A stretch of 64,000 nucleotides of DNA, taken from an uncultured Holophagales bacterium (GTDB lineage Bacteria; Acidobacteriota; Thermoanaerobaculia; Multivoradales; UBA5704). Each line of letters opens with the position of its first letter. Position 1 is the first letter of the stretch. Of the stretch, positions 9,083 through 53,046 are shown piece by piece. Location: positions 726,215 to 790,214 of the forward strand of contig CAWJGT010000001.1 of assembly GCA_963842525.1 (NCBI GenBank), read 5' to 3'. The notes below the pieces were generated by a model. It saw only the letters and a list, made by a program, of their open reading frames with translations, was not told the origin of the DNA and ran no database searches. Position numbers and translations under genes: made by a program.

Positions 9083-9140
9083 GCTTCGGTCTCCTTCTGG
9101 AATTCTACCCCCGGTGGCCTGTGATAAAACCCTTCCACGT

Positions 9141-10872
9141 CATGAACGCGAAAACCCTTCTCGCCGCTCTGCTCCTGCTCCCCGCCTCTGCCTCCGCCGC
9201 TCCGGCCTGCCAGAGCCTCGCCCCGCACCTGGACGCGGGCGGCAAGGCGGTCCATGTCATCGCCGAATGGACCGGGCCGCTCGGATTCCAGCACTACCGC
9301 AAGACGGTCGCCGGCTCGCTGCGAGAAGCCGGCGCGGCCGACGCTGCAGCAAAAGTCGAGGCGCTGGAGCCGGGCCGGCCCGTGCCGCCGGAGTCGTCGG
9401 ACCTGGCCGCCTGCCTGCTGCGCCACTACACCGTGGCCCGGTACGGCGAGCGGATCGTGGCCGACCTGCGCGACCTGGTGCGCTTCCGCACCTACGCCGA
9501 AGAGGGCCGGGAGAACTGGAACGCCCCCGAATTCCTGCGCCAGCGCGAGTGGCTGGAGCGCCGCGCCCGCGACCTGCGCCTCGCCTTCAAGTCATACGAC
9601 GGACGGGTCGAGGAAGTCACTCTCGCCGGGCCGGCCCCGATCCTCGCCGTGCTCACCCACGGCGACGTGCAGGACGTCGCGAACCAGCACTGGTCCTCGC
9701 CGCCCTGGGAGGCCCACCTGGTCGGCGAAGGAGGGAGCGCGAAGATCGTGGGCCGCGGCACCGAGGACGACAAGGGGCCGATCGCGGCCACCCTCTGGTC
9801 CATGGCGGCCCTGCGCGATACCGGCTGGCCGCTGGCCAGCACCGTCCGCCTGCTGGTGGCCAATGCCGAAGAGTCGAGCTGGGAGGAGATCCCCTACTAC
9901 CTGGAGCGGGCGCCGATGCCGGACATGACGATCGGCGTCGACGCCTCCTACCCGGTGACTCATGCGCAGAAGGGCTACGGCGTCCTGACCTTCCGGGGCC
10001 GGGGGGCCACCCAGGACGAGCCGGCGGACTGGCAGGTGATGCAGATGTCCGGCGGCAGCGGCATGTCGATCATCCCGGAATCGGGCGAGGCCGTGCTCGA
10101 GCCGGTCGCCACCCGGAGCGAACGGAAGGCTGAGCTTCCCGCCGAGCTGCCCCGCCTCGCAGCAGAGTGGTCCGCGGCCCATCCGCCGGCGCGGATCACG
10201 GTGCGCCAGGAAGGGAGCAGCTTCAAGGTGACGGCCGAGGGAAAGGGAGGCCACTCGTCCGAGCCCGCGAGCGGGCACAATGCCCTGGGGGACCTCACGG
10301 CGTTCCTGGCCACCCTCCACCTGAAGATGGACGCCTGGGGTTCTCTCGCGGCCTTTGTGGGGAAATTCGTCGGGACCGAGACGGACGGCCGCTCGCTAGG
10401 CATCGCACACCGCGACGAGGTGATGGGCGACCTCACCTCGAACCTCTCCTTCCTGCGCGAAGACAAGGGCGTTCCCATCGCCGAGGTCAACATCCGGGTG
10501 CCCCGGGGCATTACCAACGCCGCGATCACCAAGCGCATCGCCGAGCTGGCTGCCGGGTTCCGGAACCTGACCGCAGCGGCCGTCGACACCGAATCCGCCC
10601 TCCTCAGCGAGCCGCACCTCGCTCCCACGGACAGCAAGCTCGTCTCGACGCTCCTCGCCGTCTGGCAGGAGGTGACTGGAACGCCCGGCCGCCCCATCGC
10701 CATCGGCGGCGGCACCCAGGCACGGCTGTTCAAGGGGGGCGTCGACTTCGGCCCGGCCAGCTCGATGGAGCACTACCGCGGCCACGGCCCGGACGAGTAC
10801 CTCACCGTCGACGAGCTCCACCGCATCGCGGAGCTCACGGTGACGGCGCTCTGGCGGCTGGGATCCCAATGA
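9141..10872 (+). CDS. Secreted M20-family metallopeptidase (dipeptidase-like)
   Basis: ATG at 9141 followed by signal peptide 'MNAKTLLAALLLLPASASA'. M20 motifs 'LTHGDVQDV', 'GRGTEDDKGPIAA', 'NAEESSWEE'. Confidence 0.7.
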
Positions 10873-10878
10873 AGGAAA

Positions 10879-12543: not shown

Positions 12544-12562
12544 GGCGGTCCTCGCAATCAGA

Positions 12563-14539
12563 TCAGAAATCAGGGACTGCTACCGTGCGGCGGTGCACGG
12601 CCGCGAAATGCTCGCCGTCGAGGTCGACGGCCGGGGCGGCGCCGTAGAACGGGTTGTCGATCGCCCCCTCTTCGCCCTGGAGGAACCTGCGGACCCGGTC
12701 CAGCTCCTGGTTGTCGGCCACATCGCCGCGGGTCGAAATGGCGTAGCGGACACATTGCCGGGCCGGGTCGAGGATCAGGGTGCAGCCGCGCCGGAAGCGG
12801 AAATCCGGGGACTCGATCTTCCCATCCCCTTCGTCGACGGCCTTCTGGACCTCGGGGTCGAAGTACCCCCGCCGGCGCTGGCGGACCTCGACCACCAGGT
12901 CGGTGACCAGCGTGTCGCGGAAGCCGCGGCGGCGGGAGACCCGCACGGAATGCACCTCCAGCGAGGGAGTGCGGCCGTCCCGGCCCCGGTAGACCGAACG
13001 CGGTGCGCCGGGGTCCAGGGTCAGCCCGAAGGCAGCCAGTTGGCGCCGCATCGACTCCTGCATCAGCCAGAAGTAAGTGATCTTCGCGTTCTCCTCCATC
13101 GTGTCGAAGACCTTCTTGCGTTCCGTGGTCAGGTCCCAGTCGAGCGTCAGCTTCCCGACCTCCTTCTTGCCGTCCTTGCCGGCGGGCATCTCGATGCCCT
13201 CGAAAAGAGCCTTGGTTGCCGATTGATCGTAGGCGGCTTCACCCGCTCCGTCTTCGTCCAGCAGCGGGAAGCGGAGGTCGCTCTCCGCCATGCTCCGCAC
13301 TCCCTCGGGGTAGATCCCCCACTGCCGGAAGGCCTCGATGAACGCCACCCGCTGATTGTTCTGGTCATGGGGATAGACCTCGGTATCGGCGGTGACCACG
13401 GCCCGCAGGTAGGTGCCGAAATCGACGTCCACCGGCGGGCAATAATCGAGCCCACGAATGCACATGGTCAACACGGCGTCGGCGACCGCCGCAGCCTCCC
13501 GGGCCAGCCGGCGGACGAGATCGGGATGGATCTCCCCCTCGCGCAGGACGCCCGTGCCGTTGGTGGCAATGCGGAGGAGATCGGCGCTGCGCGCCTTGTA
13601 GATGGCCAGGAACGCCGAGAACACGGCGGCCAGCAGGATGCCGCCCCGGTCGTGCGGCAGGTGGGCCTCCTGCAGCCGCGCAGGATCGGGCTTGTGGGCC
13701 TCCCAGACCCCGTCCGCGTTCTTGCTCCCCAGCGCCTCGCGGAGGGCGCCGCGCTTCCCCAGGGCCTGGCCGAACTGCTGCGCCAGCTCGCCGAGCATGC
13801 TCTGCCGCTCCAGGTTGCCGCGGGTCCTGGCGATCTGGTGCGCGAGGATCTCCGGATGCGCAAAACGCTGGAAGATGGCCACGATGTCGGCGAACCCCTC
13901 GTGCAGCGCGTGCACGTCCGGGTTCGTAGCCTCGTTGAAGGAGGGGTGCAGCCCGTCGAGCAGCGCGTGCGTGGTCTCATGCGCCACCACGTCGTAGGAC
14001 AGGCTGGTGAAGACCATGCCGCCCGGCGCCTGCCCCGGTCCCCGGCCGCGGGTGGGAAAATACCCGAACAACAGCGCCTTCTTGCGCGGGCTGTAGTAGG
14101 CGTTGGCCTCCCGCAAAGCGTGCGGATAGATCCGCAGGCGGGGGACGAATTGCTCGCCGGTGACCTGGCCTTCCTTGTTGCGGATCACCCGCTTGGCCCA
14201 CAACGCCACCCGGCCGAGGGCCCGTTCGAAGTGGTCGATGGTGTTCATCGCCACGGCGTACACCATCTGCTGGTGGAACTGCGGCCCCCCTTCGGCCGGC
14301 GAGAGGCCGTCCTGAGCCAGTAGGAAGGGGTGATTCAGATCCACCGGGGCATAGAAGGCATCGCTGGCGGGGTCGAAATCCACCACCTCGATGTAGTCGC
14401 CGACCGGGCCGGGCTTCAGCCCCTCCTCCCAGGCCAGCTCCAGCGTCAGCTCGCTGATCGACAGGGTATCCAACTGCGCGCGGACGCCCGGATCAAAGGC
14501 GAACACCCGCAATCTGCGCTGAGCCGGCTTCTGGTTCAT
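12563..14539 (-). CDS. Thermolysin-like (M4-type gluzincin) zinc metallopeptidase with no obvious signal peptide
   Basis: 'VVAHETTHALLDG' followed about 20 aa later by 'HEGFADIVA' (HExxH...E spacing as in thermolysin). 'NAYYSPRKKALLFGYF' resembles thermolysin 'NAFWNGSQMVYGDG'. It lies 20 nt upstream of the MBL gene on the same strand. Confidence 0.6.
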   Translation of the reverse strand: MNQKPAQRRLRVFAFDPGVRAQLDTLSISELTLELAWEEGLKPGPVGDYIEVVDFDPASDAFYAPVDLNHPFLLAQDGLSPAEGGPQFHQQMVYAVAMNTIDHFERALGRVALWAKRVIRNKEGQVTGEQFVPRLRIYPHALREANAYYSPRKKALLFGYFPTRGRGPGQAPGGMVFTSLSYDVVAHETTHALLDGLHPSFNEATNPDVHALHEGFADIVAIFQRFAHPEILAHQIARTRGNLERQSMLGELAQQFGQALGKRGALREALGSKNADGVWEAHKPDPARLQEAHLPHDRGGILLAAVFSAFLAIYKARSADLLRIATNGTGVLREGEIHPDLVRRLAREAAAVADAVLTMCIRGLDYCPPVDVDFGTYLRAVVTADTEVYPHDQNNQRVAFIEAFRQWGIYPEGVRSMAESDLRFPLLDEDGAGEAAYDQSATKALFEGIEMPAGKDGKKEVGKLTLDWDLTTERKKVFDTMEENAKITYFWLMQESMRRQLAAFGLTLDPGAPRSVYRGRDGRTPSLEVHSVRVSRRRGFRDTLVTDLVVEVRQRRRGYFDPEVQKAVDEGDGKIESPDFRFRRGCTLILDPARQCVRYAISTRGDVADNQELDRVRRFLQGEEGAIDNPFYGAAPAVDLDGEHFAAVHRRTVAVPDF

Positions 14540-14839: not shown

Positions 14840-17564
<2,725 letters not shown>

Positions 17565-17624
17565 CTGCCTTTCGATGGTCCTTTCGAGACGAGGCGGAGC
17601 TACGCTCAGGATGTCCAGCGGAGA

Positions 17625-18332
17625 TCAGAGGATGGTACCCATCTTGTCCCAGGTCGTCGCATCGTAGCCGAGCACTGGCTGACCACTGGCGGAGACCGTG
17701 CTGAAATCCCAGGCGGCGGTCTTCGAGAACATCAGCTTGGCGATCGCTTTGCTTGCTCCAGACGCGAACTTGCCCTTGTACTCGTTCTCGTAGATGGTCC
17801 CGCGCGGCGCGCGGCCGGAGGCGAGGGTCAAACCGAAGCCGTAGAGATGGTTGATCTCCTGCGCCGTACATGGCACGATCGCATTTTCGAGGATCTCGAC
17901 TCCGTAGGTATCCTTGAGCAACCCTTTGAGGTCGGCGAGAGTCCGGAGGGCATGCCCACCTCCAAGGATCCCCACCACCTCGTCGTCTTCGGAGTCGCTC
18001 TGTCCACCACTCGCCGCCGCCACAGCAGCAGCGGAGCTCACGTGAGCACGTTGGATCGTGCCTCGGAAAACGCCATTCGTCCTCTGTGCGGTTTTCGCCT
18101 GAGCCATCCGCGCCAAGGCGCTTTGCACGTGTGGCGCAACAGGTCGCGCCGCCGCATGCGGAGTCTGGACCAGGTTTGATACCGCTGATGAAGACTGTGT
18201 CGCCGGCAATGACCTCTCCGGCATCTTTGCTTGAGCCATACCCGCGACGGCTGCCTGCACATGCGCAGCCGGAGCACGCGCCGGGACAAGTGGCAGATGC
18301 GACGGCATCGACGGCTTTCCTGGCATGGGCAA
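17625..18332 (-). CDS. Hypothetical protein with an N-terminal Pro/Ala-rich region carrying a repeated 'AAHVQAA(L/V)..MAQAK' motif and an unknown C-terminal domain
   Basis: 'APAAHVQAAVAGMAQAK' and 'PVAPHVQSALARMAQAK' repeats. The motif is shared with the N-terminus of the ART-like protein at 55748..56740. It is co-oriented with the SIR2 gene. Confidence 0.5.
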   Translation of the reverse strand: MPMPGKPSMPSHLPLVPARAPAAHVQAAVAGMAQAKMPERSLPATQSSSAVSNLVQTPHAAARPVAPHVQSALARMAQAKTAQRTNGVFRGTIQRAHVSSAAAVAAASGGQSDSEDDEVVGILGGGHALRTLADLKGLLKDTYGVEILENAIVPCTAQEINHLYGFGLTLASGRAPRGTIYENEYKGKFASGASKAIAKLMFSKTAAWDFSTVSASGQPVLGYDATTWDKMGTIL

Positions 18333-19639: not shown

Positions 19640-20150
19640 GAGCACTTCGCGCCGAACGTCGCAAACGGAGCTTCCTTTGCGACGAGTCAGCCATTCAGCA
19701 GCGCACCCAATCCATGTCTCGGCGCAAAGAAGCGATTCAGTGCGACGCGATAGAGATTCAGCGGTGCAAAGATCGATCTCGCGTCGCACTGGATCGATCC
19801 TTTGCGCCTCGATAAGCCTTCCTCGATTCCTGGATGGGTTTTGCGCCACGACGAAGCGCTACGCCGTCGCACGTAGACCTGCGACGGCGCAATAGAGTCG
19901 CACATCGGCGCAAAATAGACTCTCATCGCCTCGCTGTGCGCCAACAGAGCGACGACGAAGGCTTTGTCGTCGCAAATTATCGATAGAGAGTCGCAAAGGA
20001 TAGATTCGCGGCGCACTCTAGTCATCCAACGGCGCACTGAACGCTTCTTTGCGCCGGGCAAACGGATACTGCGTGACCCGCTGCCGTTGTCTGCGAGGCC
20101 CCGCCGGGCCTTTGCGCCAGCGGGTGTACAATGGAGCCTCGATCTGGAGC
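19640..20150. repeat. Intergenic array of short palindromes built on TGCGAC/GTCGCA and GGCGCAA/TTGCGCC cores
   Basis: For example, gtgcgacgcga...N28...tcgcgtcgcac, and cgccgtcgca-cgtagacc-tgcgacggcg. There are more than 15 occurrences of these cores within ~500 bp. Confidence 0.6.
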
Positions 20151-20157
20151 CCGCACC

Positions 20158-20553
20158 ATGAACCGTTTCCTTCGCCCGTTGCCCGCCCTTCTTGCCATCC
20201 TATGGCTCGCCGCCACCGCGCTATCCGCGCAGGAGACCGGCGACCGCGCCGGCGAGGCACCCTCGCGCCGTCACCATCGGTACCCACGGCCTCGTCGAAC
20301 GCGGCCAGGGGCCTCGAGGCCAGGGGCGGTGGCGAGGGTTCCCGATCAGCGTCAGCCTGCGCGACGCGCCGCTGCCGGAAGTCCTCCGCGCGTTCGCCCA
20401 AATCGCCGGCTTCAACCTGGTCCTCGACCCCAGGATCCCCCAGGGGACCGTGACGGTCGAGCTCAAAGACGTGCCCTGGGACCAGGCGCTGCACGTGATC
20501 CTCAAGACCCACGGCCTCGCAGCCGAGGTCGCGGCCGGTTGTGGTTGATCGCC
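20158..20553 (+). pseudogene. Small secretin-N/STN-like domain protein (signal peptide plus a PilQ-N0-like domain), broken by at least 2 frameshifts
   Basis: 'MNRFLRPLPALLAILWLAATALSAQE' in one frame. The domain 'ISVSLRDAPLPEVLRAFAQIAGFNLVLDPRIPQGTVTVELKDVPWDQALHVILKTHGLAAEV' is in another frame, with a third shift at the end. Confidence 0.5.
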
Positions 20554-20944
20554 CTTTAAAACGCCCTCACGGGCCTCTTCGGGAGTGGAGGAACGGTGCT
20601 GGGCAGCCTTGGATGAAGGGGTCCGGACGAGCGCACGGTCGACGGACGCCTCTCGACCGGGATCGTCAGGCCCGCCCTGACCTGAAGCTCTCCAAGGCGG
20701 GCGGAAAGGCTGCGGGGAGCGCTCTTCCGCCGATGGAGCGACCTGCGCTTGCTGGAACGGAGGAGAGGTCGGAGCAGCCAGTCCGGAAGCTCTGGGAGGT
20801 GCGCAGCCACGGCTGGATTCTCGCACACTGGGTTGGCGAAGTCTCCCGCAAAGATCTCAGCATCCAGGCACGATCCGCAGGAATCCCCGACGCTCAGCTC
20901 CTGATCCCTGCGGACGGGGAGGCTTTGGAACTCGTCCTCAGATC

Positions 20945-20980
20945 TTGACGCTAGTGCCCAGCAGACGCTAGTATTTTGGC
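20945..20980 (+). promoter_or_regulatory. Sigma70-like promoter candidate for the TIR operon (TTGACG-N18-TAGTAT) in a locally AT-richer stretch
   Basis: 'ttgacgctagtgcccagcagacgctagtatttt' lies ~50 nt upstream of the ATG at 21028. Confidence 0.3.
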
Positions 20981-21027
20981 ATACTCACTGCAGCACAGCT
21001 ACTCTTGGATGCCGAGGACCCGAAAGA

Positions 21028-22296
21028 ATGCCTTACGAATTTTTCTTCAGCTATACGCGGGCCAATAATGACGATTATCTCCGGAAATTCTTTGCCGAGC
21101 TGAACGACGCGGTCCGCCGCAAGGCCGGTTATCCCCAGGGGACCCTGACGGGCTTTTTCGACCAGAAGCGCCTCGAAGCGGGCACGGAATGGAACCAAGC
21201 CCTGGTCACCGCGCTCCAGGAAAGCGCGACCCTGGTCTGCGTCTACTCTCCCGCCTACTTCAAGAGCGAGTTTTGCGGACGGGAGTGGGGGGTTTTCGAG
21301 GAGCGCTGGCGGCTTCATGGGGCGCTTCGGCAGGCAGCAGATCCCGCAACCTCGGAGTGGCCCTCCGTTATCAAGCCTGTCCTCTGGATCCCGCTCCAGG
21401 AAGATCTCCCGGCCGGCGTTGGCAGCAAGCAGTTGGCTGGCGGCAACCCGCAGGGGGCGTTGAGCACGGTGGGTCTACTCAACATGCGGATGAGATATTC
21501 GAAGTACAGGATCGGTTATTTGGACTTCATCGACAAACTTGCGGATGAGATCCTGAAGGCCCGCGGTATTTATAAAGGCAAGCTGCCACGGGTGACTCCC
21601 GAGCCTGACTTCCGGACTTTCCAGAGCGCCTTTCACGCACCGCCGGCTCCTGGACAGGCTGCGGCTCCGAAGCCACAGGACCGTGGTCCCAATGGCGTCC
21701 AGTTCGTCTTCGTCGCCGGGAAACCTGACGAGTTGCGGGGGACCCGCAGCGTCGACAGCTACGAGCAGAAAGGGGGCAGGGATTGGAAACCCTATTACCC
21801 TCAAAAGCTCAGGCCTATCGGAGCCCTCGCTCAAGGCGTCGCCGCGAGCGAGGACCTCGACTTCTTCAGCGAGGAATTGCCCTTTAGCGCACAATTGCCC
21901 CAGGACGTGCGCAACGCCGAGAATCAGGCGAACATCGTGGTTTTAGTCGTCGACGGATGGACCGCTACATTGCCTTCCTACGATCAGATCCTCGAGCAGT
22001 TCGACAAGGAGGGCTACTTCAACTGCAGCGTCCTGGTCCCTTGGAACGACGCCGATGCCGAGACCGCCCAGCAGCGTGCCGCGCTCGAAGCCCAGGTCCG
22101 CAGCGTCTTCCGCCGGCACTCGAGACATCCGCTCTATTTCCGGGACGCCATCACATCGGAAGAAGATCTGAGGGAGCAGCTCCGTGACGTACTGATCCGC
22201 CTCAAGGCAGAGGTTTTCAACCAGGCCCCAGTGAGTCGGCCGGTGCCGAACGGCGGAGTCAAGCCCGTCGTCTCGGGTCCTGGAGGTGACCGGTGA
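21028..22296 (+). CDS. TIR-domain protein (N-terminal TIR, ~280-aa unknown C-terminal region)
   Basis: 'MPYEFFFSYTRANNDDYLRKFF...' (FxSY box) and 'SPAYFKSEFCGREW' (SxxYxxSxxCxxEW, with a candidate catalytic Glu). GC is visibly lower than in flanking genes. Its stop overlaps the start of the next gene (gtGA). Confidence 0.75.
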   Translation: MPYEFFFSYTRANNDDYLRKFFAELNDAVRRKAGYPQGTLTGFFDQKRLEAGTEWNQALVTALQESATLVCVYSPAYFKSEFCGREWGVFEERWRLHGALRQAADPATSEWPSVIKPVLWIPLQEDLPAGVGSKQLAGGNPQGALSTVGLLNMRMRYSKYRIGYLDFIDKLADEILKARGIYKGKLPRVTPEPDFRTFQSAFHAPPAPGQAAAPKPQDRGPNGVQFVFVAGKPDELRGTRSVDSYEQKGGRDWKPYYPQKLRPIGALAQGVAASEDLDFFSEELPFSAQLPQDVRNAENQANIVVLVVDGWTATLPSYDQILEQFDKEGYFNCSVLVPWNDADAETAQQRAALEAQVRSVFRRHSRHPLYFRDAITSEEDLREQLRDVLIRLKAEVFNQAPVSRPVPNGGVKPVVSGPGGDR

Positions 22297-25200
22297 GCAG
22301 CCGTCCTCCCGGCACGATCATCACTTTCTATTCCTACAAGGGCGGTACAGGCCGTTCCATGGCGCTCGCAAACATCGCCTGGATCCTGGCGTCCAGCCAC
22401 AAACGTGTACTGGTGGTGGACTGGGATCTCGAGGCTCCGGGCCTGCACCGCTATTTCCGTCCCTTCCTGCTCGACAAGCAGCTGAGCTCCTCCGCGGGGG
22501 TGATCGACTTCGTGATCGATTATGCGACCGAAGCGATCAAACCTGTCACAGAGGGAGAGCCGTTGCCCGACAACTGGTACATCGAGCAGGCCGACATCCT
22601 TCGTTATGCCATTACGCTCGACTGGGAGTTCCCATCGGGCGGCGTCCTCGACCTCATCCCAGCGGGCAGGCAGGGCCCGAGCTATGCCGCGCGTGTAAAC
22701 TCGTTCAACTGGCAGAACTTCTACGAGCGCTTGGGCGGCGGCCGGGTCCTGGATGCAGCCAGAGACCATATGCGGGCGGAGTACGACTACATTCTCATCG
22801 ACAGCCGGACGGGCGTCAGCGACACCTCCGGCATCTGCACCGTGCAAATGCCAGACGCTCTGGCGGTCTGCTTTACCTTCAACAATCAGAGCATCGAGGG
22901 AGCCGCCGCGGTGGCGCGCTCCGCTCATGAGCAGCAGGCCAAGCGCAGTGATCGCGCCTTCAGGGTCTTCCCCATTCCCATGCGGGTCGATGCGTCCGAA
23001 GTGGACAAGCTGAATACCCGGCGGCGCTACGCCTGGTGGATGTTCGACTCCCTGCTGAGCCACATCCCGAGTGCCGACCGCAGGCTCTATTGGGGCGAGG
23101 TCGAAGTGCCCTACATCCCGGTCTTCGCCTACGAGGAGATCCTCGCCTCCTTCCGCGAAGAGCCGAGCGATCCGAAGACCGCTCTCTCTGCCATGCTGCG
23201 GACCACCCGCCACCTGACCGGCGTCGGTGGCGAATACTCTTTTTCCATCTCACCCGAACAGCGGCAGGAGATCCTGGCGGAGTTCGCCAGCACTCCCGGG
23301 GAATTCGCGCTGGACAGCGCTCCTGTGATTCCAAAGGAGACGGCTGCCGAAGAGCAGACGCGGGTGGCCGAAGGCGCCTTTGCGTCTTTCTCTCCGCAGG
23401 AGCAGGCCGATCTCCGGCACCTCCTGACCCGTCTGGTGCGGATCGCCGGCGGGCCGGACGAGGCGGAGGGAGCTCACGGGCGGCTGCGAGTGAGAGTCCA
23501 GGATCTGGGTCCGGCAGCCCTCCCCCTCATTGACAGGCTCACAGCGCTGAGGCTCCTCACGGTACAAATGGAGGCCGGAACGAAGAGTGTGGAGCTCGCC
23601 GATGACGGACTCGCGCAGAGCTGGCCTCGCCTGCGCGACTGGATCGCGGGGGACCTCGAATTCCTTCTCTGGCGCCAGAGGCTGCGGGACCGTTGCCGGG
23701 ATTGGGAGAAGACCGATCACAGCAGCGACCTGCTGCTGCAAGGGTTGCCGTTGAGGGCAGCGCAGCGCTGGCTGCTGGAACGGGGAGCCGATCTCAACGA
23801 GGTGGAGACTGCCTTCATCCAGCAGTCTGCCGCGCTGGAATCCCGCTCGCAGTACTCATTTTCCGCCCGAGGCTTGCGAGCCTTCATCATCCGGCCGTTC
23901 GGCATCAAGCAGGAGATCGATTTCGACCGTGTGGAGAAGGAGCTGATCGATCCGGCTCTCAGCCAGCTCAATGTCGGGGGCCGGACAACGGTCGATATCC
24001 TGCGGGCAGGCAACATCCGGCTCGACATGTTCCAGCGGCTTCTCGCCGCCGATCTGGTCGTCGCGGATGTCTCGATCCATAACGCAAATGTCTTTTATGA
24101 GTTGGGCATCCGCCATGCCCTGCGGGATAAACGGACCTTCCTGCTGCGCTGCGAAGGCGATCAATATCCTTTCGATCTGCAGACCGATCGTTATTTTGTC
24201 TACCGGAAGGACAATCCAGCGGCCAGCCTGAGCCTGCTGACGACGGCTCTCGCGCGTACGATCACCTCCGAGGACATCGACAGTCCCGTCTTCCGGTCGC
24301 TCCCCGGCTTGAGGCAGCAGGACGGCTCGAGCCTCCTGGCGATCCCGCAGGATTTCATCGATGCCATCGAGCAGGCTGCGGCCACGCGCCAGCGTGGCGA
24401 CCTCGAGCTGCTTTCCGCGGAGATCCGGGACCTGGAATGGGCGCGCGGAGGACTGCGGATCATCGGCCGCAAGCAGTTTGATATCAAAGCCTATTCTGGA
24501 GCGCGGAGCACCTGGGAGGCAATCCGGAAGCTCGACCCGGATGACTTGGAGGCGAATACGCTGCTGGGAACCATTTACCAGCGCCTGGGAGAGCCCGTGA
24601 ACTCCGACCAAGCGATCCAGCGTGTCCTGCGCCACGATGAAGCAGCGGGAGACCAACGGGCCGAGGCTCTTGCCCTTCTCGCCCGTAATGCCAAGACCCG
24701 CTGGAGGGAGGAGTGGCACAGGCTCCCCTCCGAGCGCTTGCGTGAGGAGGCCTTGCGCTCCCCGTTCCTTGAGGAGTCTGCTCTCGCGTATATGCGAGCT
24801 TTCGAAGAATCCTTCAATCACTTCTACCCGGGCCTGAACGCGCTGGCAATGCTTACGGTTCAAATGGAGCTGGCGAGCGCTTTGCCGGAGATCTGGTTCG
24901 AGCGCTTCGATCAAGAAGAGGATGCCCGGAGGGAGATCGAAAGGAGAAACGAGCAGATCCGCAAGATCGCCTCTGCCGTGGAGCTGTCTCTGGCGGCAGC
25001 CAAGTCGCGCCTTGAGCGCCGGCAGGAAAGCGACATTTGGGTGGAGATCAGCGAGGCCGACTTTATCTGCCTGACCTCGAACCGACCGCGACGGGTCGCC
25101 GATGCCTATCGCAAGGCTCTGGCGAGCGTCCCGGATTTTGCCATCGATGCGATCAACGGCCAGCTCAGGATGTACCAACTGCTTGGAGTCCTGAGCGCCA

Positions 25201-28266: not shown

Positions 28267-28546
28267 CCCCTGTCCCCATGCGCTTTAACTTACCCCCGGG
28301 ACGTGCCAGATCGCCCAAGGTTCACACCCGGGGCTACCCAGTTCCGCCCTCCGGGCTCTCGAATCCTGGGCACTTCGACCAACATTCTTGCGAGCCCGGA
28401 GGGCGCCATTCGGTAGCCCAGGGTGTGAACCCTGGGCGGGAGCTTCGATCGTCATCCGCACCATACGAGCCTCCTTGACCATTTCCACCTTACCACGGAG
28501 GGATGAGGCTGTATCCTTGTGCGGCCCTGAGCAAGGAGCCCGATCC

Positions 28547-42955: not shown

Positions 42956-43239
42956 GGTGCGCCTCCGATCTCGCTGCACCGATCCGGGTGCCCGCTGGCC
43001 GGTGAAACCACTGAAGCGGCGGTTTCCTGCGGCCAGGGCTCTCGGATCACTGCCGAGCGTTTGGTGATCCCGCTCTGCGCGCACAGCAACCGCGATGCCA
43101 GGTGCGAAAGCCGACGGTAAGAGGCGGAAAACAAAGGGCTTGCCGGTGACCCTACGGACGCAAGCCGACTCATCTTCGACGTTTTCGTCGAGGAGCGGCG
43201 ACGAGACTGTCGAAAAGAGCGAGTCGTCGGCGCCGCCGG

Positions 43240-43302
43240 GCCCTCACCTCCCCGGCCCTCCTCTCCCAGCCTCACACCCGCCCTTCCGGGAGAGGAGGGA
43301 GA
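43240..43302. repeat. Left arm of a 65-bp near-perfect inverted repeat that brackets the DUF559 gene
   Basis: 'ccctcacctccccggccctcctctcccagcctcacacccgcccttccgggagaggagggag' is the reverse complement of 43691-43758, with 1-2 mismatches. Confidence 0.85.
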
Positions 43303-43310
43303 TCGGATCA

Positions 43311-43673
43311 TCAAGGGTTGCGTTGTTCGAGTCGTTGATGGATTTTTTCGAGAACGGAGTCGAGGTTTTCCAGGACCTCTTCATTCGTGAAGCGTAGGAC
43401 CTTGTAGCCCAGGGCGACCAGATTGACGTCCCGGTTCTCGTCGTGGATCTTCTGCCGACGGTCCTCATGTATCCCACCGTCGAGCTCCAGCACGAGCATC
43501 CGATCGTGGCAAAAGAAGTCCGCAATATATTGTCCGATCGGCACTTGACGGCGGAATTTCAGGCCGAGGAACTGCCGATCGCGCAGCTTCTCCCAGAGCA
43601 CTTCTTCGGCCAACGTGGATGCCCGGCGAAGACGCTTGGCGCGGACGAGGGCTCCGGGACCCGAAACAGGCAT
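43311..43673 (-). CDS. DUF559 (Vsr-like endonuclease fold) protein
   Basis: 'MPVSGPGALVRAKRLRRASTLAEEVLWEKLRDRQFLGLKFRRQVPIGQYIADFFCHDRMLVLELDGGIHED'. Confidence 0.75.
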   Translation of the reverse strand: MPVSGPGALVRAKRLRRASTLAEEVLWEKLRDRQFLGLKFRRQVPIGQYIADFFCHDRMLVLELDGGIHEDRRQKIHDENRDVNLVALGYKVLRFTNEEVLENLDSVLEKIHQRLEQRNP

Positions 43674-43690
43674 GACGGGATCATAGAACT

Positions 43691-43758
43691 TCTCCCTCCT
43701 CTCCCGGAAGGGTGGGTGTGAGGCTGGGAGAGGAGGGCCGGGGAGGTGAGGGCCCGGA
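43691..43758. repeat. Right arm of the 65-bp inverted repeat, 17 nt upstream of the DUF559 start
   Basis: 'ttctccctcctctcccggaagggtgggtgtgaggctgggagaggagggccggggaggtgagggcccgg'. Confidence 0.85.
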
Positions 43759-43872
43759 CGGCGCCGCCGACGCTTCAAGTACCACCGAGTGACATGGAGA
43801 CGAGGTGGCGCGGCGTGATCTTCGCGGCCGAGGGCATTCCTCCATGTATGATACGCAGGTGCAAGGGATTCT

Positions 43873-49239: not shown

Positions 49240-49269
49240 GTGGGCGCGGTGGCTTACCCGGCGGCACCA

Positions 49270-49368
49270 TGACGACGCACAAGTTCCCATTTGCTGAGGT
49301 CGGGCACGCCTTTCACATGATGGAGACCAAAGAAGACAACATCATCAAGCCGCTGATCACCTATTGAG
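49270..49368 (+). pseudogene. 32-codon C-terminal remnant of a zinc-dependent (MDR) alcohol/threonine dehydrogenase
   Basis: 'THKFPFAEVGHAFHMMETKEDNIIKPLITY*' matches MDR C-termini ('thrfpLee...af.lm'). There is no upstream gene body; the low-GC islet begins immediately downstream. Confidence 0.5.
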
Positions 49369-49439
49369 TCGACGGAGCTCGGCTTCGGCGTCGTCCGGGC
49401 GCCGCGGACCGTGGACGATAACCTGGTCTTAAAGGGTGT

Positions 49440-49880
49440 TTGGAAATCGAGCCCCGCAGGGGCGGACGGAATTAGCCCGGTACGTCAGTGCCGGGTTGGG
49501 AGGCACAAATCCACCATCCAGCCCCGGTAGGGGCGGCAGGAAATCCGGTGGGTTGAAATGCGTTCGGTTCCCGGGATTGAAATCCATACCTTTACACACA
49601 TCTCAAAGCGCCCCTTGTGGGCGCGGGCGCGTAGACCCGGGTTTCAACCCGGGGTCGCGGAGGCCCGGCCCGTTTCGAGCCCCTTTCAGGGGCGTCGGCG
49701 AGGATGGCGCACAGGCCCGCCGTCCTCGGGCACCGCACACCGACGGCATTGCGCTTCCGTCTGCGCCATCGCCCCTGAAAGGGGCGCAGGGAGGATTGGT
49801 GGATCTCGCACCCCGGGTTGAAACCCGGGGCTATGTGCCAGCGCCCACAAGGGGCGCTTCCCCCACCCTCCCGGACAGGA
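49440..49880. repeat. Composite GC-rich multi-hairpin element with UUCG/GNRA-type tetraloops, arranged as a ~95-bp imperfect inverted repeat around a ~65-bp core
   Basis: Left arm 49607-49697: gcgcccc-ttgtg-ggcgc; gacccggg-tttcaa-cccggg; gcccct-ttc-aggggc. It is mirrored at 49764-49862 as cgcccct-gaa-aggggcg; ccccggg-ttgaaa-cccgggg; gcgccc-acaa-ggggcgc. Confidence 0.75.
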
Positions 49881-50212
49881 TATGTATAACGGTGTTCTCG
49901 TGTGACTGAAATGCCAAGCGCGCGTAGGGTCAGATGCGCTCTGCTCGACCTCCTTCGCTCGTCGAGCATGCCGTAGTTGCGGCTTTCCGCGGCACAGGGC
50001 CGACCAGAATGCTTCTCCAAATGCCTCGGCGGTCTTGACGCAGGTTACGAAGAGGTGTAGGGTGCGCTAAGTCGAAGAGGATAAGCATCTTGCATGCTCG
50101 ACAATCTGGGACCGGCCGTAGACTCAACCCGCAGGTGGTGTCGTATACGCCTGTGGGCGGGGTGCCGGCGAATATGTGAGGCAGAGGTTAGACGCAAAAG
50201 AAGCATGCTCGT

Positions 50213-50881
50213 ATGAAACAGACAATCGACAGTCGCTTTGCTGACCTAGTGGATCAAGGCCATCGCCTCTTAAGCGAGCTTCCTCTTGACAATAATAACC
50301 TCGGATATTGGGTGCTCAGGGAGTCTATCCCCAAATACCAGGCATGGATAGCCTCGACTGTTAACCTGCTAAGCAACATCGCGCTACCAGCAAGTTACTA
50401 TGTCGAGGAAAGCAGACGATTGGTTTCCGACAAGGACTTGGCGAGGGGAATACCGACGCACGTAGTGCAGAAGCTTTGCGCTCTCCTTGTATCTGCCTAC
50501 GAAGAATGGAATGCGGGGCTCCTTAAGAGAATTGAGTATGTGCTGATCGCGGCAACATTTGACGACTTCCTCGAACACGCTGCCCCTTATCATAAAGGAA
50601 ATAAAAAAACAGAGGCCGCCGTTCTGGCGAGCGCTGTGCTTGAAGATACCATAAAGAAGATCGCCGAAAAGCAAGGCATAGAAACGAGTGGCAAGAGCTT
50701 GGAGCAACTAGTGGATGCCCTCGTTAGCGCCTCGGTGTTTTCCTTAGTTCAAGGCAAGAGGGTAAAGGTCTATTCCGGAGTACGTAATCACGCGCTTCAC
50801 GCTGAATGGGACCGTTTTGAAATCAGAGACGTCGGAGAGTTGATCAAGGGCACACGGACCCTTATCGAGGATTTTGTTTGA
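50213..50881 (+). CDS. HEPN-type (Rx4H) Abi-like hypothetical protein in a low-GC islet
   Basis: ~48 % GC by eye. C-terminal 'VRNHALHAEWDRFE' fits the HEPN R-x4-H motif. No signal peptide. Confidence 0.5.
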   Translation: MKQTIDSRFADLVDQGHRLLSELPLDNNNLGYWVLRESIPKYQAWIASTVNLLSNIALPASYYVEESRRLVSDKDLARGIPTHVVQKLCALLVSAYEEWNAGLLKRIEYVLIAATFDDFLEHAAPYHKGNKKTEAAVLASAVLEDTIKKIAEKQGIETSGKSLEQLVDALVSASVFSLVQGKRVKVYSGVRNHALHAEWDRFEIRDVGELIKGTRTLIEDFV

Positions 50882-50983
50882 TAGAAGCTGCGCATCGAAC
50901 CCGCGCTTGCACCGGTCAGACGGCCATCGCCGCCTTCCGGTGAAGCGACTAGCGCACGCTGGTCGGCTTGATATCACGAAGGA

Positions 50984-51220
50984 ATGCCAAGCTTCACACA
51001 CCTGCAGGGCCAATATCTCGCTTTCATCGACGCGTACACGAAAGTGAGCGGTCGTCCACCGGCGGAGGCTGACTTCCTGCGCTACTTCAAAGTCTCGCCG
51101 CCCTCGGTCCACCAGATGATCCTTACGCTTGATCGCCTCGGACTCATTACACGTTTGCCGGGCCAAGCGCGATCCATTCGTCTGAATCTTCCGTCCAACG
51201 AGATTCCGCGTCTCGAGTAG
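50984..51220 (+). CDS. Small winged-helix-like protein (possible regulator or iteron-binding protein)
   Basis: 'SPPSVHQMILTLDRLGLITRLPGQARSIRL' resembles a winged-HTH. Low GC. Confidence 0.4.
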   Translation: MPSFTHLQGQYLAFIDAYTKVSGRPPAEADFLRYFKVSPPSVHQMILTLDRLGLITRLPGQARSIRLNLPSNEIPRLE

Positions 51221-51221
51221 G

Positions 51222-51460
51222 AGTGCAAGCCCAAAGGGCGTGGCGAAGGTGCCCCGAAGGGGCTCTGGCGTAAAGCCTGGCGCTTCAGCGCCAGGTTGGC
51301 GTTCCCCAAACTCTCCGGAGCCCCGAAGGGGCGCAGGCATTGCGTCAAATTTGCCGTCGCCCCTTCGGGGCTTGGAGGCGTGGAGGACCCTGACCTGGCG
51401 CTGAAGCGCCAGGCTTTATGCCTGCGCCCCTTCGGGGCTCCTCGTCGCCGTCGTCGTTGG
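51222..51460. repeat. Nested inverted repeats of small hairpins (gccccGAAggggc / gccccTTCGgggc; cctggcgcTTCAgcgccagg)
   Basis: Left arm 51240-51300 mirrors right arm 51385-51445. An inner inverted repeat lies at 51322-51372. Confidence 0.7.
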
Positions 51461-51520
51461 GCGCGTATTTATGGGATGGAGGATATCGGTTGGGGATACT
51501 GCCATCTGCTCCAGATGAGC

Positions 51521-51850
51521 TACGACGCCCAGCGTAAGCTTATCCAAGCCAGATAAGCTTACACTGGCTCAGATAAGGGTATCCGCGCCAGATAGTGTTA
51601 TCTGCGCCAGATAAGCCCACGCTGGCCTGGATAAGCTTATCTGCGCCGGATAAGCTTATCCACGCTGGATAACGTTATCTACGGCAGATAGTGTTATCTG
51701 GGGCAGATAAGCTTATCTGCGCTGGATAAGCTTACACTGGCGTGGATACCGTTATCCGCGCTGGATAGTGTTATCTGCGGCAGATACGCTTATCCGTCTT
51801 GGATACGCTTATCTGCGCCGGATACGCTTACACTGAGCTGGATAACGTTC
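51521..51850. repeat. 17 direct tandem copies of a ~20-bp palindromic unit (consensus cyGGATAAGCTTATCYGCG) that contains DnaA-box-like 9-mers (TTATCCACG, TTATCTGCG, TTATCCGCG)
   Basis: Units read off directly: gataagcttacactggctca / gataagggtatccgcgcca / gatagtgttatctgcgcca / ... / gataacgttctctacgtca. No spacers separate them. Confidence 0.85.
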
Positions 51851-51902
51851 TCTACGTCAGATCATTTAAACAGCGGTGGATGTCTGTGGAGAAGGGCGCG
51901 GA

Positions 51903-51928
51903 ACAAGGGGGAGCGTGGCGGGCACGCT
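51903..51928 (-). terminator. 10-bp GC hairpin (ggggagcgtg-gcgg-gcacgctcccc) just downstream of the minus-strand gene ending at 51946; no clear U-tract
   Basis: Perfect stem seen in the sequence. Confidence 0.3.
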
Positions 51929-51945
51929 CCCCGGAGGAGTGACAC

Positions 51946-52318
51946 TTACTGCGGATCGATCGCGAGGACCGCGGGAGTGGCGGGGTCGGGCGGCGTCTTG
52001 GCCTTGCGGCCGCGGAACGGCTGGAGGTGGAATTCCGCGAGCTTCTCCGACCGCAGGCCGTAGTGCTGCTGGAGGATCTTGCCTGCCGCGGTCGCCAGCC
52101 TTTCGCCTTCGGTGAGCAGCGTACGGATGCGCTTGCTCGCCTCCTGCTTGCTGGCGACGAGGGCGGCGTGCTCCCGCACGACTCCTTGCGCTTCGGCCAG
52201 GATCGCCTCGATCCGGACGCGAAGGCCTTCCAGGTGGGTGAGCTCGGCAGCGTTGGCGAGCAGCGCGGCGATGAATCGCGCCAGTGCGCCCAGCTTCCCT
52301 GCATAGGTACGTTCAGAC
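51946..52318 (-). CDS. Hypothetical coiled-coil protein
   Basis: 'MSERTYAGKLGALARFIAALLANAAELTHLEGLRVRIEAILAEAQ...'. No family recognised. Confidence 0.4.
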
Positions 52319-52691
52319 ATTTTGCTTCTCCTTTTTGAGCCCGAGGGGGCTCGAACACCCGGCGCCGGAAGCGGCGCCTGATGTGTGCATAGAGTCCACG
52401 ACTTTCCCGGCGGTGTCAAGAGCCTCGTTGACTTTCCCGGTCGACTGTGCGAGCCTCCTGCATATTGAAGGACGCGCGATGATGCCGATCGACCGAGCAG
52501 GACGATCGGGAACGCAAGGCTCTTTGACAATAGAGAAGGACGGCGGCCCCCGGGTCCAAGGGCGCCGCCGTCCGCCCGGACGGGTCCGCTGTGTTCCGGC
52601 GGACCCGGTCCCTGTTTCTCCGGCACCTACCCCTTGCAAGACTATGGGAAGGTGCGGTAACGTCTTCGCAGGCGAAAGAGGAGAGCCTGCG

Positions 52692-53036
52692 ATGGGACGT
52701 GAATCTGGAGATCTTCTGCAGGGGACGCTGGGTCTGTTGATCCTCAAGGCGCTGGCCGGCGAGGAGCGGCACGGCTACGGCATTGCGCGCTGGATCGAGG
52801 AGGTGACCGGCGGAGTGCTGCAGGTCGAGGAAGGGTCGCTCTACCCCGCGCTACGGCGGCTGGAGGACCGCGGCTTCGTCGAGTCGCGATGGGGGCTTTC
52901 GGAGAACAACCGCCGCGCCCGCTTCTATGCGGTCTCGCGCGCCGGCCGGCAGCACCTGCACGCCGACGCCTCCACGTGGATGCGCTTCGCCCGCGCCGTC
53001 ATGGGCGCGCTCGAGGCCGAGCCGTCGGTCGTCTGA
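52692..53036 (+). CDS. PadR-family transcriptional regulator
   Basis: 'LQGTLGLLILKALAGEERHGYGIARWIEEVTGGVLQVEEGSLYPALRRLEDRGFV'. Confidence 0.85.
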   Translation: MGRESGDLLQGTLGLLILKALAGEERHGYGIARWIEEVTGGVLQVEEGSLYPALRRLEDRGFVESRWGLSENNRRARFYAVSRAGRQHLHADASTWMRFARAVMGALEAEPSVV

Positions 53037-53046
53037 GGGCCCGGCC

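What the first reader, a model, noticed from the sequence alone, without database searches (positions are those of the whole stretch)
49270..51945. A ~2.6-kb low-GC islet that truncated an alcohol-dehydrogenase gene and carries a HEPN Abi-like gene plus origin-like repeats
A 32-codon MDR dehydrogenase C-terminus (…KFPFAEVGHAFHMMETKEDNIIKPLITY*) has no gene body upstream. Immediately downstream, GC drops to roughly 50 %. The region contains a HEPN-motif (RNHALH) Abi-like ORF, a small winged-helix ORF, two blocks of structured palindromes and a 17-unit iteron/DnaA-box array. No integrase or transposase is visible, so this may be a decayed integrative or plasmid-derived element that delivered an abortive-infection-type gene.
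Basis: partly seen in the sequence, partly recalled or inferred. Interest (0 to 1): 0.6.

Follow-up and report, generated by a model that had tools for sequence, protein, structure and literature searches.

The report
Fossil integron cassettes beside host repeat array
The low-GC patch is a frozen remnant of integron gene cassettes, one of which encodes an intact HEPN RNase-type protein, while the "origin-like" repeat array next to it belongs to a conserved host gene of unknown function that carries a similar array, with a different repeat sequence, in three related genomes.

Summary
The interpretation needs three corrections.

1. The 32-codon ADH tail is itself low-GC (49.5% against 67.6%). 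It is imported debris, not a truncated host gene.

2. The HEPN gene and the small winged-helix gene are integron gene cassettes.
- Relatives of both sit in canonical attC-flanked arrays.
- The window keeps the GTTAGAC core 26 nt upstream of the HEPN start codon.
- It also keeps a vestigial attC, homologous to canonical ones, whose GTT has mutated to GCT.
- There is no intact attC in the islet and no integrase in 64 kb, so the cassettes are frozen.

3. The 17-unit array is neither an iteron nor a DnaA-box array, and it is not part of the islet.
- It follows the terminator of the adjacent 125-aa host gene.
- In all four independent Thermoanaerobaculia loci examined, that gene is followed by a 17–26-unit array with a 19–21-bp period.
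- The unit sequence is unrelated from genome to genome.
- This gene–array module appears undescribed, and its function is unknown.

The palindrome blocks are REP-like inverted pairs that match Rfam Acido-Lenti-1.

The parts
49269..49367 (+). Remnant of the last 32 codons plus the stop of a zinc-type NAD(P)-dependent alcohol dehydrogenase. It is low-GC (49.5%) and has no gene body upstream.
   Evidence: tblastn E 3e-8 to the C-termini of annotated ADH genes; GC; NCBIfam PRK10083 positions 307-337 of 339, E 0.068
49436..49870 (.). Palindrome block 1, with host-like GC (66%). It holds one Acido-Lenti-1 unit (49450-49495, minus strand) and a 254-nt hairpin (49606-49859) built from inverted pairs of small GC hairpins.
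   Evidence: Rfam RF01687 46.4 bits; inverted repeat I2, 92% complementary; fold z -8
50187..50193 (+). GTTAGAC, an integron attC R' core site (GTTRRRY) that marks the 5' boundary of the HEPN cassette, 26 nt before the ATG.
   Evidence: Only 18 GTTRRRY sites on this strand in 64 kb. In homologues the motif lies in the 30 nt before the ATG in 16 of 63 loci, against 0-3 in most other 30-nt bins (one outlier of 7); the relaxed motif gives 27 of 63
50213..50881 (+). Intact 222-aa protein: an N-terminal helical domain plus a C-terminal HEPN domain carrying R191-N-H-A-L-H196.
50894..50964 (+). Vestigial attC of the HEPN cassette: R'' ATCGAAC, an L''/L' stem kept by compensatory changes, and R' GCTGGTC in which GTT has mutated to GCT.
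   Evidence: 79% identical to the attC plus leader in front of the wHTH gene in L169; alignment with canonical attC sites; hairpin z -3; fails the strict attC test
50984..51220 (+). 78-aa winged-helix protein equal to a LexA N-terminal DNA-binding domain without the hinge or peptidase domain. It is a very common cassette gene.
   Evidence: Pfam PF01726 E 9.4e-6; TIGR00498 lexA E 4.8e-7; T. maritima LexA 3k2z E 2e-5; more than 7700 homologues; attC-flanked copies in L086, L087 and L169
51229..51463 (.). Palindrome block 2: a divergent inverted pair of Acido-Lenti-1 units folding into one 235-nt hairpin. It is host-type and REPIN-like.
   Evidence: RF01687 49.2 and 33.2 bits; fold -107.9 kcal/mol, z -15; the same pair follows the array in L172
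51495..51860 (.). Array of 17-18 units with a 19-bp period and core (C/T)(A/G)GATA-N4-TATC(C/T)(G/A). It lies 3' of the host gene at 51946-52323.
   Evidence: Analogous arrays lie after the orthologues in L075, L172 and L176
51897..51923 (-). GC-rich hairpin (GGGGAGCGTG...CACGCTCCCC) between the 125-aa gene and the array. Its sequence is conserved in the other three loci, where a T-run follows.
   Evidence: Read directly
51946..52323 (-). 125-aa host protein ('hyp125'): a three-helix bundle followed by a conserved QPFRGRK motif and a Pro-rich tail. It is the gene to which the array belongs.
   Evidence: 529 homologues, named Thermoanaerobaculia where a source names them; 963 cluster representatives; AF2 pLDDT 82; alignments

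Best explanation
The foreign DNA consists of 49269-49367 and roughly 49871-51220. It is a fossil of integron gene cassettes lodged in a repeat-rich intergenic region, between a SIS-domain gene and a host gene that carries its own downstream repeat array.

Two cassettes are recognisable.
- A HEPN cassette begins at the GTTAGAC core (50187) and ends in a mutated attC (50894-50964).
- A cassette encoding a LexA-N-terminal-domain-only winged-helix protein follows, and is cut off right after its stop codon.
- The ADH tail is debris from another imported gene.

With the attC core mutated (GTT to GCT), no second intact attC and no integron integrase in 64 kb, the cassettes can no longer move. This last step is an inference.

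The HEPN protein is intact and keeps every invariant residue of its family. It most likely acts as a stand-alone RNase of the toxin or abortive-infection type, with the N-terminal helical domain acting as sensor or auto-inhibitor. The fold and motif are shown; the activity and role are inferred.

The wHTH gene is an independent cassette, not a partner of the HEPN gene.

The 19-bp array, its terminator hairpin and palindrome block 2 are host features of the 125-aa gene module.
For: Family level:
- GTTRRRY lies in the 30 nt before the ATG in 16 of 63 HEPN-homologue loci, against 0-3 in most other 30-nt bins (one outlier of 7).
- RYYYAAC lies within 30 nt after the stop in 8 of 63 loci.
- The relaxed core motif is found in 27 of 63 loci.
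- Complete attC | HEPN | attC units occur in L160, with one-sided attC sites in L093, L122, L155, L158, L162, L164 and L166. L112 is a multi-cassette array.
- In Paenibacillus L005 the homologue sits among 11 attC-like repeats.

wHTH:
- Canonical 58-106-nt attC sites with an extrahelical base lie in L087 (six sites, two of them directly before wHTH copies); read by eye, attC sites also lie before the wHTH gene in L169 and after it in L086 and L169.
- L087 holds three copies within 7 kb.
- Group II introns lie next door in L086, L168 and L169, and also in the HEPN locus L160.

Window:
- GTTAGAC lies at -26 from the HEPN start.
- The HEPN-wHTH spacer is 79% identical to the attC plus leader of L169. 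It aligns box by box with canonical attC sites, with a compensated stem and GTT mutated to GCT.
- tblastn with IntI1 finds nothing better than E 0.09.

HEPN identity.
Against: - No site in the islet passes the same strict attC test that finds 20 sites in related loci, so the cassette reading rests on homology and on one core site.
- The stretch upstream of GTTAGAC (50122-50193) has an exact RYYYAAC and an exact GTTRRRY, but poor R-box pairing and asymmetric spacing.
- About half of the HEPN homologues are not in recognisable cassettes. L001 is a lone insertion between housekeeping genes. L100 lies beside a phage-type integrase, an excisionase-like gene and an XRE-type regulator. A non-integron vehicle therefore cannot be excluded.
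- The 820 bp between the ADH tail and the HEPN cassette is unexplained and contains host-type repeats.
- No empty site in a close relative could be retrieved.
- PADLOC has no match for the HEPN protein, so a defence role is purely inferred.
Confidence: 0.65

Rival explanations
1. One reading: a decayed plasmid- or phage-derived integrative element. Its replication origin would be the iteron/DnaA-box array, its DNA-binding protein the wHTH, and its cargo the HEPN gene.
For: Low GC and no integrase. The 19-bp period is typical of iterons. One unit reads TTATCCACG, and 10 sites within two mismatches of a DnaA box lie in the array.
Against: - Arrays in the same position follow orthologues of the neighbouring host gene in L075, L172 and L176, with unrelated units (TTCAAGGNCTTGAA, CAGCTTCTCCAG, CTCCAAACTTTACG). 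None resembles a DnaA box, and those loci have no HEPN or wHTH gene.
- wHTH homologues elsewhere carry no such array.
- The array has no match in 72,556 plasmids, 50,697 phages or the viral contigs.
- No rep, par or dnaA gene is adjacent.
Confidence: 0.04
2. The HEPN and wHTH genes form one functional two-gene module, with the toxin or effector controlled by a repressor or antitoxin, delivered together by an unknown non-integron vehicle.
For: The two genes are adjacent and co-oriented, 102 bp apart and both low in GC. HEPN toxins usually have partners such as MNT antitoxins. Some homologues ride integrase islands.
Against: - None of the 63 other HEPN-homologue loci contains a wHTH homologue.
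- None of the wHTH loci contains a HEPN homologue.
- HEPN homologues occur as single-ORF cassettes between two attC sites (L160).
- The spacer between the two genes is itself an attC homologue.
Confidence: 0.1
3. Palindrome block 2 (51229-51463), closed by GCCCAA/TTGGGC and ending in GTTGGGC, is an unusually long attC of the wHTH cassette. In that case the array would be an ORF-less cassette.
For: An exact GTTRRRY lies at 51456 and the near-complementary GCCCAAA at 51229. The whole 235 nt folds as one hairpin.
Against: - The same divergent pair of Acido-Lenti-1 units follows the array in L172, where there is no cassette. A convergent pair lies at 28314-28436 between host genes.
- The GC is host-like.
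- wHTH cassettes elsewhere end in attC sites read at about 60 nt, of a different sequence.
- The array belongs to the host gene in 4 of 4 loci.
Confidence: 0.1

Closest known systems
Integron gene cassettes outside a complete integron (CALIN / single attC lacking an integrase, as defined for IntegronFinder; described in bioRxiv 10.1101/2024.07.02.601686)
   Same: Promoterless single-ORF units that begin just after a GTTRRRY core and end in a structured attC. Cargo of unknown, toxin or defence type. No integrase nearby. Group II introns and many small unknown genes occur in the related arrays.
   Different: Here the attC sites are decayed (GTT mutated to GCT). None passes a strict structural test, and only two cassettes plus debris remain. 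The remnant is embedded among host REP-like repeats in an Acidobacteriota chromosome.
HEPN-domain toxins and abortive-infection proteins: DUF4145-like and HepT families, the 'integron cassette HEPN' family (PDB 3jrt) of Anantharaman et al. 2013 (PMC3710099), and the Esos and Taranis cassettes of Vibrio integrons (bioRxiv 10.1101/2024.07.02.601686)
   Same: A four-helix HEPN fold with R-x4-H near the C-terminus and a conserved acidic pair (E144, D145). A single-gene unit carried as an integron cassette.
   Different: The window protein does not reach any Pfam, NCBIfam or PADLOC model by itself. It has its own ~105-residue N-terminal helical domain and no MNT partner. Its relation to 3jrt or Esos was not tested, and no function has been shown.
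LexA repressor, N-terminal DNA-binding domain (PF01726; PDB 3k2z, 1lea)
   Same: Residues 2-73 of the 78-aa protein align with residues 2-74 of the 203-position NCBIfam lexA model TIGR00498.
   Different: It lacks the cleavable hinge and the S24 peptidase/dimerisation domain. It is a stand-alone 78-aa cassette product with more than 7700 relatives. Its target DNA is unknown.
Protein-plus-tandem-site loci: plasmid iterons with Rep, and parC with ParR
   Same: 17-26 tandem units of about 20 bp next to a small gene. The unit sequence differs between replicons.
   Different: The locus is chromosomal and lies 3' of the gene, after its terminator. No Rep, ParM or ParA gene is nearby. The protein is a three-helix bundle, not a ribbon-helix-helix or winged-helix fold, and binding was not tested.
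REP/REPIN-type intergenic palindromes; Rfam RF01687 Acido-Lenti-1 (Weinberg et al. 2010, PMC2864571)
   Same: The two-hairpin 46-nt unit matches the Rfam model above the gathering score.
   Different: Four of the five units found in the window (three above the gathering score, two below) occur as inverted pairs forming hairpins of about 120-235 nt. That looks like a DNA repeat rather than an sRNA gene. No RAYT-type transposase was looked for.

Membership tests
Integron gene cassette | The 5' boundary falls at the G|TTRRRY core of the preceding attC, a short distance upstream of the ORF | tested here: met
   GTTAGAC at 50187-50193, 26 nt before the ATG. The same position is enriched in homologues: 16 of 63 loci against 0-3 in most other bins.
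Integron gene cassette | The 3' end carries an attC: R'' RYYYAAC, L'' and L' with an extrahelical base, and R' GTTRRRY, folding as a hairpin | tested here: inconclusive
   50894-50964 is homologous to canonical attC sites, with a compensated L stem. However, R'' is ATCGAAC and R' is GCTGGTC (GTT lost). It fails my strict structural scan. The IntegronFinder covariance model is not available here.
Integron gene cassette | Other members of the gene family are found between attC sites in cassette arrays | tested here: met
   20 canonical attC sites in the fetched HEPN/wHTH loci, many of them flanking those homologues; arrays in L112, L005 and L087.
Complete integron | An integron integrase (intI) with attI upstream of the cassettes | tested here: not met
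CALIN (two or more attC sites without an integrase) | At least two attC sites detectable by the attC model | tested here: not met
   No attC passes the heuristic scan anywhere in the window, and no candidate lies in the islet. Only one vestigial attC was found, by homology.
HEPN superfamily | A four-helix up-and-down HEPN fold | tested here: met
HEPN superfamily | An R-x4-6-H motif at the end of helix 3, plus a conserved acidic residue in helix 2 | tested here: met
   R191, N192, H196, E144 and D145 are invariant in 37 sequences.
DUF4145 (PF13643) | A match to the Pfam model at the gathering threshold | tested here: not met
   The window protein has no Pfam hit at E<=1. 20 of 37 relatives give weak hits, the best at E 3.1e-5. 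It is therefore related within the clan, but membership is not established.
Known anti-phage defence or Abi systems | A match to a curated defence-system model, or a demonstrated phage-resistance phenotype | tested here: not met
   No PADLOC hit at E<=1. A phenotype cannot be tested with these tools.
Plasmid iteron origin or DnaA-box cluster | Repeats adjacent to a rep or dnaA gene, with units matching TTATCCACA, conserved as such in relatives | tested here: not met
   Only one site within one mismatch lies in the array. There is no rep or dnaA neighbour. Orthologous arrays in L075, L172 and L176 have unrelated units.
LexA | An N-terminal wHTH domain plus a cleavable hinge and an S24 peptidase domain | tested here: not met
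   Only the N-terminal domain is present, in a 78-aa protein. TIGR00498 scores 29.6 bits against a cutoff of 110.95.
H-NS/Lsr2-type xenogeneic silencer (for the 125-aa gene) | An oligomerisation domain plus a structured DNA-binding domain with a Q/RGR AT-hook-like loop | tested here: inconclusive
   11 of 27 members weakly hit PF22470, the H-NS N-terminal domain (best E 4e-4). The FRGR motif lies in a disordered tail. The glycine varies (G/S/R) in distant members. There is no structural or sequence match in the PDB.

The most novel reading that the evidence does not exclude
The 125-aa gene and its downstream array form an undescribed, conserved protein-plus-repeat-array module. A small three-helix-bundle protein with a basic QPFRGRK tail is always followed, after a conserved terminator hairpin, by 17-26 tandem units of about 20 bp (roughly two helical turns). 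Their AT-richer cores have an unrelated sequence in each of the four genomes. The most interesting reading is that the array is a double-stranded-DNA platform on which the protein, or a partner, assembles. Possible roles are a nucleoid-protein loading or titration site, or a chromosomal centromere-like or anchoring site. The rapidly changing unit sequence would then imply shape or periodicity read-out, or fast co-evolution.
Probability: 0.3. Interest if true: 0.8.

Novelty: new member of a known kind. Interest (0 to 1): 0.58.

Why it matters
The islet

It shows how integron cassettes can end up fixed in a chromosome that has no integron. This happens in a phylum (Acidobacteriota) whose mobile gene pool is poorly known. 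Two points follow.
- The HEPN protein belongs to a widespread family (442 clusters at 90% identity found, 50-59% identity across relatives that sources name as KSB1, Paenibacillus and other bacteria) and is often carried as a cassette. That makes it a good candidate for a compact single-gene toxin or defence system.
- The LexA-domain-only cassette family is very large (more than 7700 relatives). Integron integrases are commonly LexA-regulated, so this family deserves a look.

The array

This is the more surprising result. A repeat array that looks like a replication origin turns out to be a constant companion of a small conserved host gene, with a different repeat sequence in each genome. If it is functional, it is a new kind of protein/DNA-repeat locus. 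It would be directly testable by ChIP or DAP-seq and by deletion of the array.

The Rfam entry

Rfam Acido-Lenti-1 may be a REP-like DNA repeat rather than an sRNA gene.

Tried and rejected
- Synteny and empty site. The closest SIS-gene relatives in GTDB are only 69% identical and share no neighbours. The 88% and 84% orthologues of the 125-aa gene (P0242, P0243) and the window's own proteins are not retrievable. The insertion junctions therefore could not be defined by comparison.
- Array elsewhere. No match in plasmids or phages by blastn. Two pattern scans of viral contigs found nothing, and neither did a scan of the 169 loci held at that time.
- Array as partner of the wHTH gene. Rejected, because wHTH loci have no arrays.
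- Arrays found by TRF in other HEPN loci (L112, L132, L169). They lie inside repeat-protein ORFs and are irrelevant.
- L100 as a complete integron. Rejected, because its recombinase is a phage-type integrase with an excisionase-like gene and an XRE-type regulator.
- Acido-Lenti-1 hairpins as attC sites. Rejected: they have no AAC/GTT boxes, they occur between host genes, and they follow the array in L172.
- Array as a structured RNA. Fold z-scores are -12, -9, +0.8 and -4 across the four loci, so structure is not conserved.
- AT-hook reading of the FRGR motif. Weakened, because the glycine is not conserved in distant members.
- Foldseek and PDB profile searches for the 125-aa protein. Uninformative.
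- The 125-aa gene in viral contigs. None found.
- Consensus scans. No promoter-like site; three terminator-like sites, no more than in shuffled sequence and none in the features discussed.
Full report
**1. Observation**

The window has 67.6% GC. Its proteins are most similar to those of Acidobacteriota (Thermoanaerobaculia) MAGs: the best relatives of the SIS-domain gene are 69% identical.

- ADH tail. 49269-49367 encodes MTTHKFPFAEVGHAFHMMETKEDNIIKPLITY*.
  - By tblastn it matches the C-terminal ~32 residues of annotated NAD(P)-dependent alcohol dehydrogenases (E 3e-8, 69% identity). The match ends one codon before the stop of 350-aa genes.
  - Upstream homology stops at about 49265. The SIS gene ends at 49239.
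- GC by segment:
  - ADH tail 49.5%
  - 49871-50212 57.9%
  - HEPN ORF 49.6%
  - wHTH ORF 57.4%
  - array 50.3%
  - the two palindrome blocks 66-68%, which is host-like

The 'islet' is therefore a mosaic rather than one uniform low-GC block.

**2. The HEPN gene**

- The 222-aa product of 50213-50881 has 442 relatives in the large protein collection. Most are 50-59% identical, and the few that a source names are assigned to candidate division KSB1, Paenibacillus and 'Candidatus Wujingus'.
- R191, N192, H196 (R-N-x3-H), E144 and D145 are invariant in 37 sequences.
- The window protein matches no Pfam, NCBIfam or PADLOC model. However, 20 of 37 relatives weakly hit DUF4145 and 10 of 37 hit HepT-like.
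- An AlphaFold model (pLDDT 88) has a C-terminal domain whose best matches are all HEPN proteins:
  - Foldseek agrees.
- The motif is therefore real. The N-terminal ~105 residues form a separate helical domain.

**3. Both genes are integron cassettes**

Flanks of 63 HEPN homologues:
- The attC core GTTRRRY lies in the 30 nt before the ATG in 16 loci. Most other 30-nt bins hold 0-3, with one outlier of 7.
- A relaxed core is found in 27 of 63 loci.
- The inverse core RYYYAAC lies within 30 nt after the stop in 8 of 63 loci.
- GTTRRRY recurs 60-180 nt after the stop.

A strict structural scan required the R boxes, R-box complementarity, enforced AAC/GTT pairing and a folding-energy threshold.
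- It finds 20 canonical attC sites in these loci.
- They include a complete attC | HEPN | attC unit in L160.
- L112 is a multi-cassette array.
- In Paenibacillus montaniterrae the homologue sits among 11 attC-like repeats.

The 78-aa wHTH protein:
- It is a LexA N-terminal domain without the hinge or peptidase domain (PF01726 E 9.4e-6; TIGR00498 E 4.8e-7; 3k2z E 2e-5).
- It has more than 7700 relatives.
- Copies in L087 are preceded, and copies in L086 and L169 followed, by attC sites of canonical layout; L169 also has one upstream. L087 holds three copies in 7 kb. Group II introns lie nearby.

In the window:
- GTTAGAC lies 26 nt before the HEPN ATG. Only 18 such heptamers occur on this strand in 64 kb.
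- The 102-bp HEPN-wHTH spacer is 79% identical to the attC plus leader that precedes the wHTH gene in L169.
- It aligns box by box with canonical attC sites. The L''/L' stem is kept by compensatory changes, but the R' triplet GTT is mutated to GCT.
- The strict scan finds no intact attC in the islet.
- tblastn with IntI1 finds no tyrosine recombinase in 64 kb.
- HEPN and wHTH homologues never co-occur in the other loci, so they are independent cassettes.

My reading is a frozen cassette remnant. How it reached this site is inference. Possible routes are IntI-mediated insertion at a secondary site, or a rearranged and eroded array.

Caveats:
- About half of the HEPN homologues are not in recognisable cassettes. 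L001 is a lone insertion between housekeeping genes. L100 lies next to a phage-type integrase.
- The 820 bp between the ADH tail and GTTAGAC is unexplained.

**4. The palindromes**

- Rfam places Acido-Lenti-1 (RF01687) at 51394-51439 (+), 49450-49495 (-) and 28393-28436 (-), all above the gathering score. Sub-threshold partners lie at 51250-51295 (-) and 28314-28357 (+).
- The units form inverted pairs. 51229-51463 folds into a single 235-nt hairpin (-107.9 kcal/mol, z -15), and 49606-49859 folds likewise.
- The same divergent pair follows the array in L172.
- Weinberg et al. recorded only that the motif occurs in Acidobacteria and Lentisphaerae, sometimes near group II introns.
- I read these as host REP/REPIN-like repeats, not as origin structures and not as attC sites.

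**5. The array**

- It has 17 units at a 19-bp spacing, with core GATA-N4-TATC. That core occurs 11 times in the array and nowhere else in the window.
- It lies between convergent genes. It sits directly after the hairpin that follows the 125-aa gene at 51946-52323 (minus strand).
- That gene has 529 relatives, named Thermoanaerobaculia where a source names them, and 963 cluster representatives, the 150 listed being short proteins (76-201 aa) matched in one stretch.
- In every locus I could read, the orthologue is followed by a sequence-conserved GC hairpin and then, from +77 to +106 after the stop, by an array:

| Locus | Units | Period | Core |
|---|---|---|---|
| L075 | ~22 read by eye (12 by motif scan) | ~21 bp | TTCAAGGNCTTGAA |
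| L172-175 | at least 18 | ~20 bp | CAGCTTCTCCAG |
| L176 | 26 | 20 bp | CTCCAAACTTTACG |

- Lag-match fractions of 0.44-0.73 at 19-21 bp exceed every shuffle, whose maximum was 0.35.
- The units are unrelated between genomes, so they are not DnaA boxes. Only one site within one mismatch of TTATCCACA lies in the window's array.
- The array is not part of the foreign DNA.
- Single-strand structure is not conserved (z -12, -9, +0.8 and -4). This favours a role as double-stranded DNA.
- The protein is a three-helix bundle (pLDDT 82) with a near-invariant EKLxEFGxQPFRGRK motif and a Pro-rich tail.
  - Eleven of 27 members weakly hit the H-NS N-terminal domain.
  - Against this, the glycine varies in distant members, and no PDB relative was found.
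- Function is unknown. My working guess is that the protein or a partner assembles on phased, AT-richer patches spaced two helical turns apart. I give that low confidence.

**6. Verdict**

- The islet is an ordinary though instructive case: a decayed integron cassette remnant that carries an intact, uncharacterised HEPN cassette gene.
- The truncated-host-ADH reading and the origin reading are not supported.
- The unexpected result is the conserved gene-plus-array module next door. It rests on four independent loci and deserves a systematic survey.

Noticed in passing
window 28314-28436, 49450-49495, 51250-51439; L172 7014-7226: Rfam Acido-Lenti-1 (RF01687), filed as an sRNA gene, occurs here mostly as inverted pairs that form long hairpins in intergenic DNA. 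The loop and linker patterns are shared between genomes. This looks like a REP/REPIN-type DNA repeat rather than a trans-acting RNA. Three of the four significant hits in the window lie inside the 2.7-kb finding.
   Followed up: partly
window 50984-51220; L087 140-376, 5001-5237, 6567-6803; L086 151-387; L168 1883-2119; L169 8001-8237: The 78-aa cassette protein is a LexA DNA-binding domain without the cleavable or dimerisation part. The family has more than 7700 relatives, with up to three copies in 7 kb of one cassette array. Integron integrases are often under LexA control, so an uncleavable mini-LexA spread by cassettes could interfere with SOS or integrase regulation. This was not tested.
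   Followed up: partly
L005 (Paenibacillus montaniterrae BOSE01000006.1) 1-12657: A run of co-oriented small genes (APH, NUDIX, acetyltransferases, DinB, HAD, the HEPN homologue) is separated by 11 copies of a ~170-bp repeat. The repeat has attC-like R''/L''/L'/R' boxes (TATAAC...GCATTAACG...CGTTAATGC...GTTAT). This is an integron-like cassette array in a Firmicute.
   Followed up: partly
L086 1769-3944; L160 1532-1607; L168 53-121; L169 10027-11689: Group II introns (Rfam domain hits, plus RT/maturase ORFs in L086 and L169) sit inside or beside the cassette arrays that carry the HEPN or wHTH homologues.
   Followed up: no
L100 52-1607 and 2346-3032: One HEPN homologue lies 1.3 kb from a phage-type tyrosine integrase, with an excisionase-like gene and an XRE-type gene between them. 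The same gene family therefore also travels on integrase islands. L001-L004 show it as a lone insertion next to a 66-aa CinA fragment.
   Followed up: partly
outside the window (same 808,628-bp contig): P0248, a 132-aa paralogue (76% identical) of the 125-aa array-associated gene, is recorded on the same source contig as P0241, the window's own copy. The gene, and possibly the array, is therefore multi-copy in this genome.
   Followed up: no
window 51897-51923; L075 ~16076-16100; L172 ~6419-6445; L176 ~6445-6473: The hairpin between the 125-aa gene and its array is conserved in sequence (GGGGAGCG[C/T]G ... C[A/G]CGCTCCCC) across loci whose arrays are unrelated. It is followed by a T-run in three of the four. 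In L172 and L176 the gene is divergent from an ArgR gene; in the window it is divergent from a PadR gene.
   Followed up: partly
window 15000-18000, 20000-25000, 43000-43800, 55600-56400, 58400-58800: Further dips in GC (0.56-0.63 against about 0.69) that may mark other imported segments. They were not examined.
   Followed up: no
window 52692-55696: A PadR-family regulator (Pfam E 4e-20) is followed by a long ORF (listed at 935 aa, 52889-55696) that looks like an FtsX/MacB-type duplicated permease. I recall this pairing as typical of Acidobacteria. The permease was not checked against any library.
   Followed up: no
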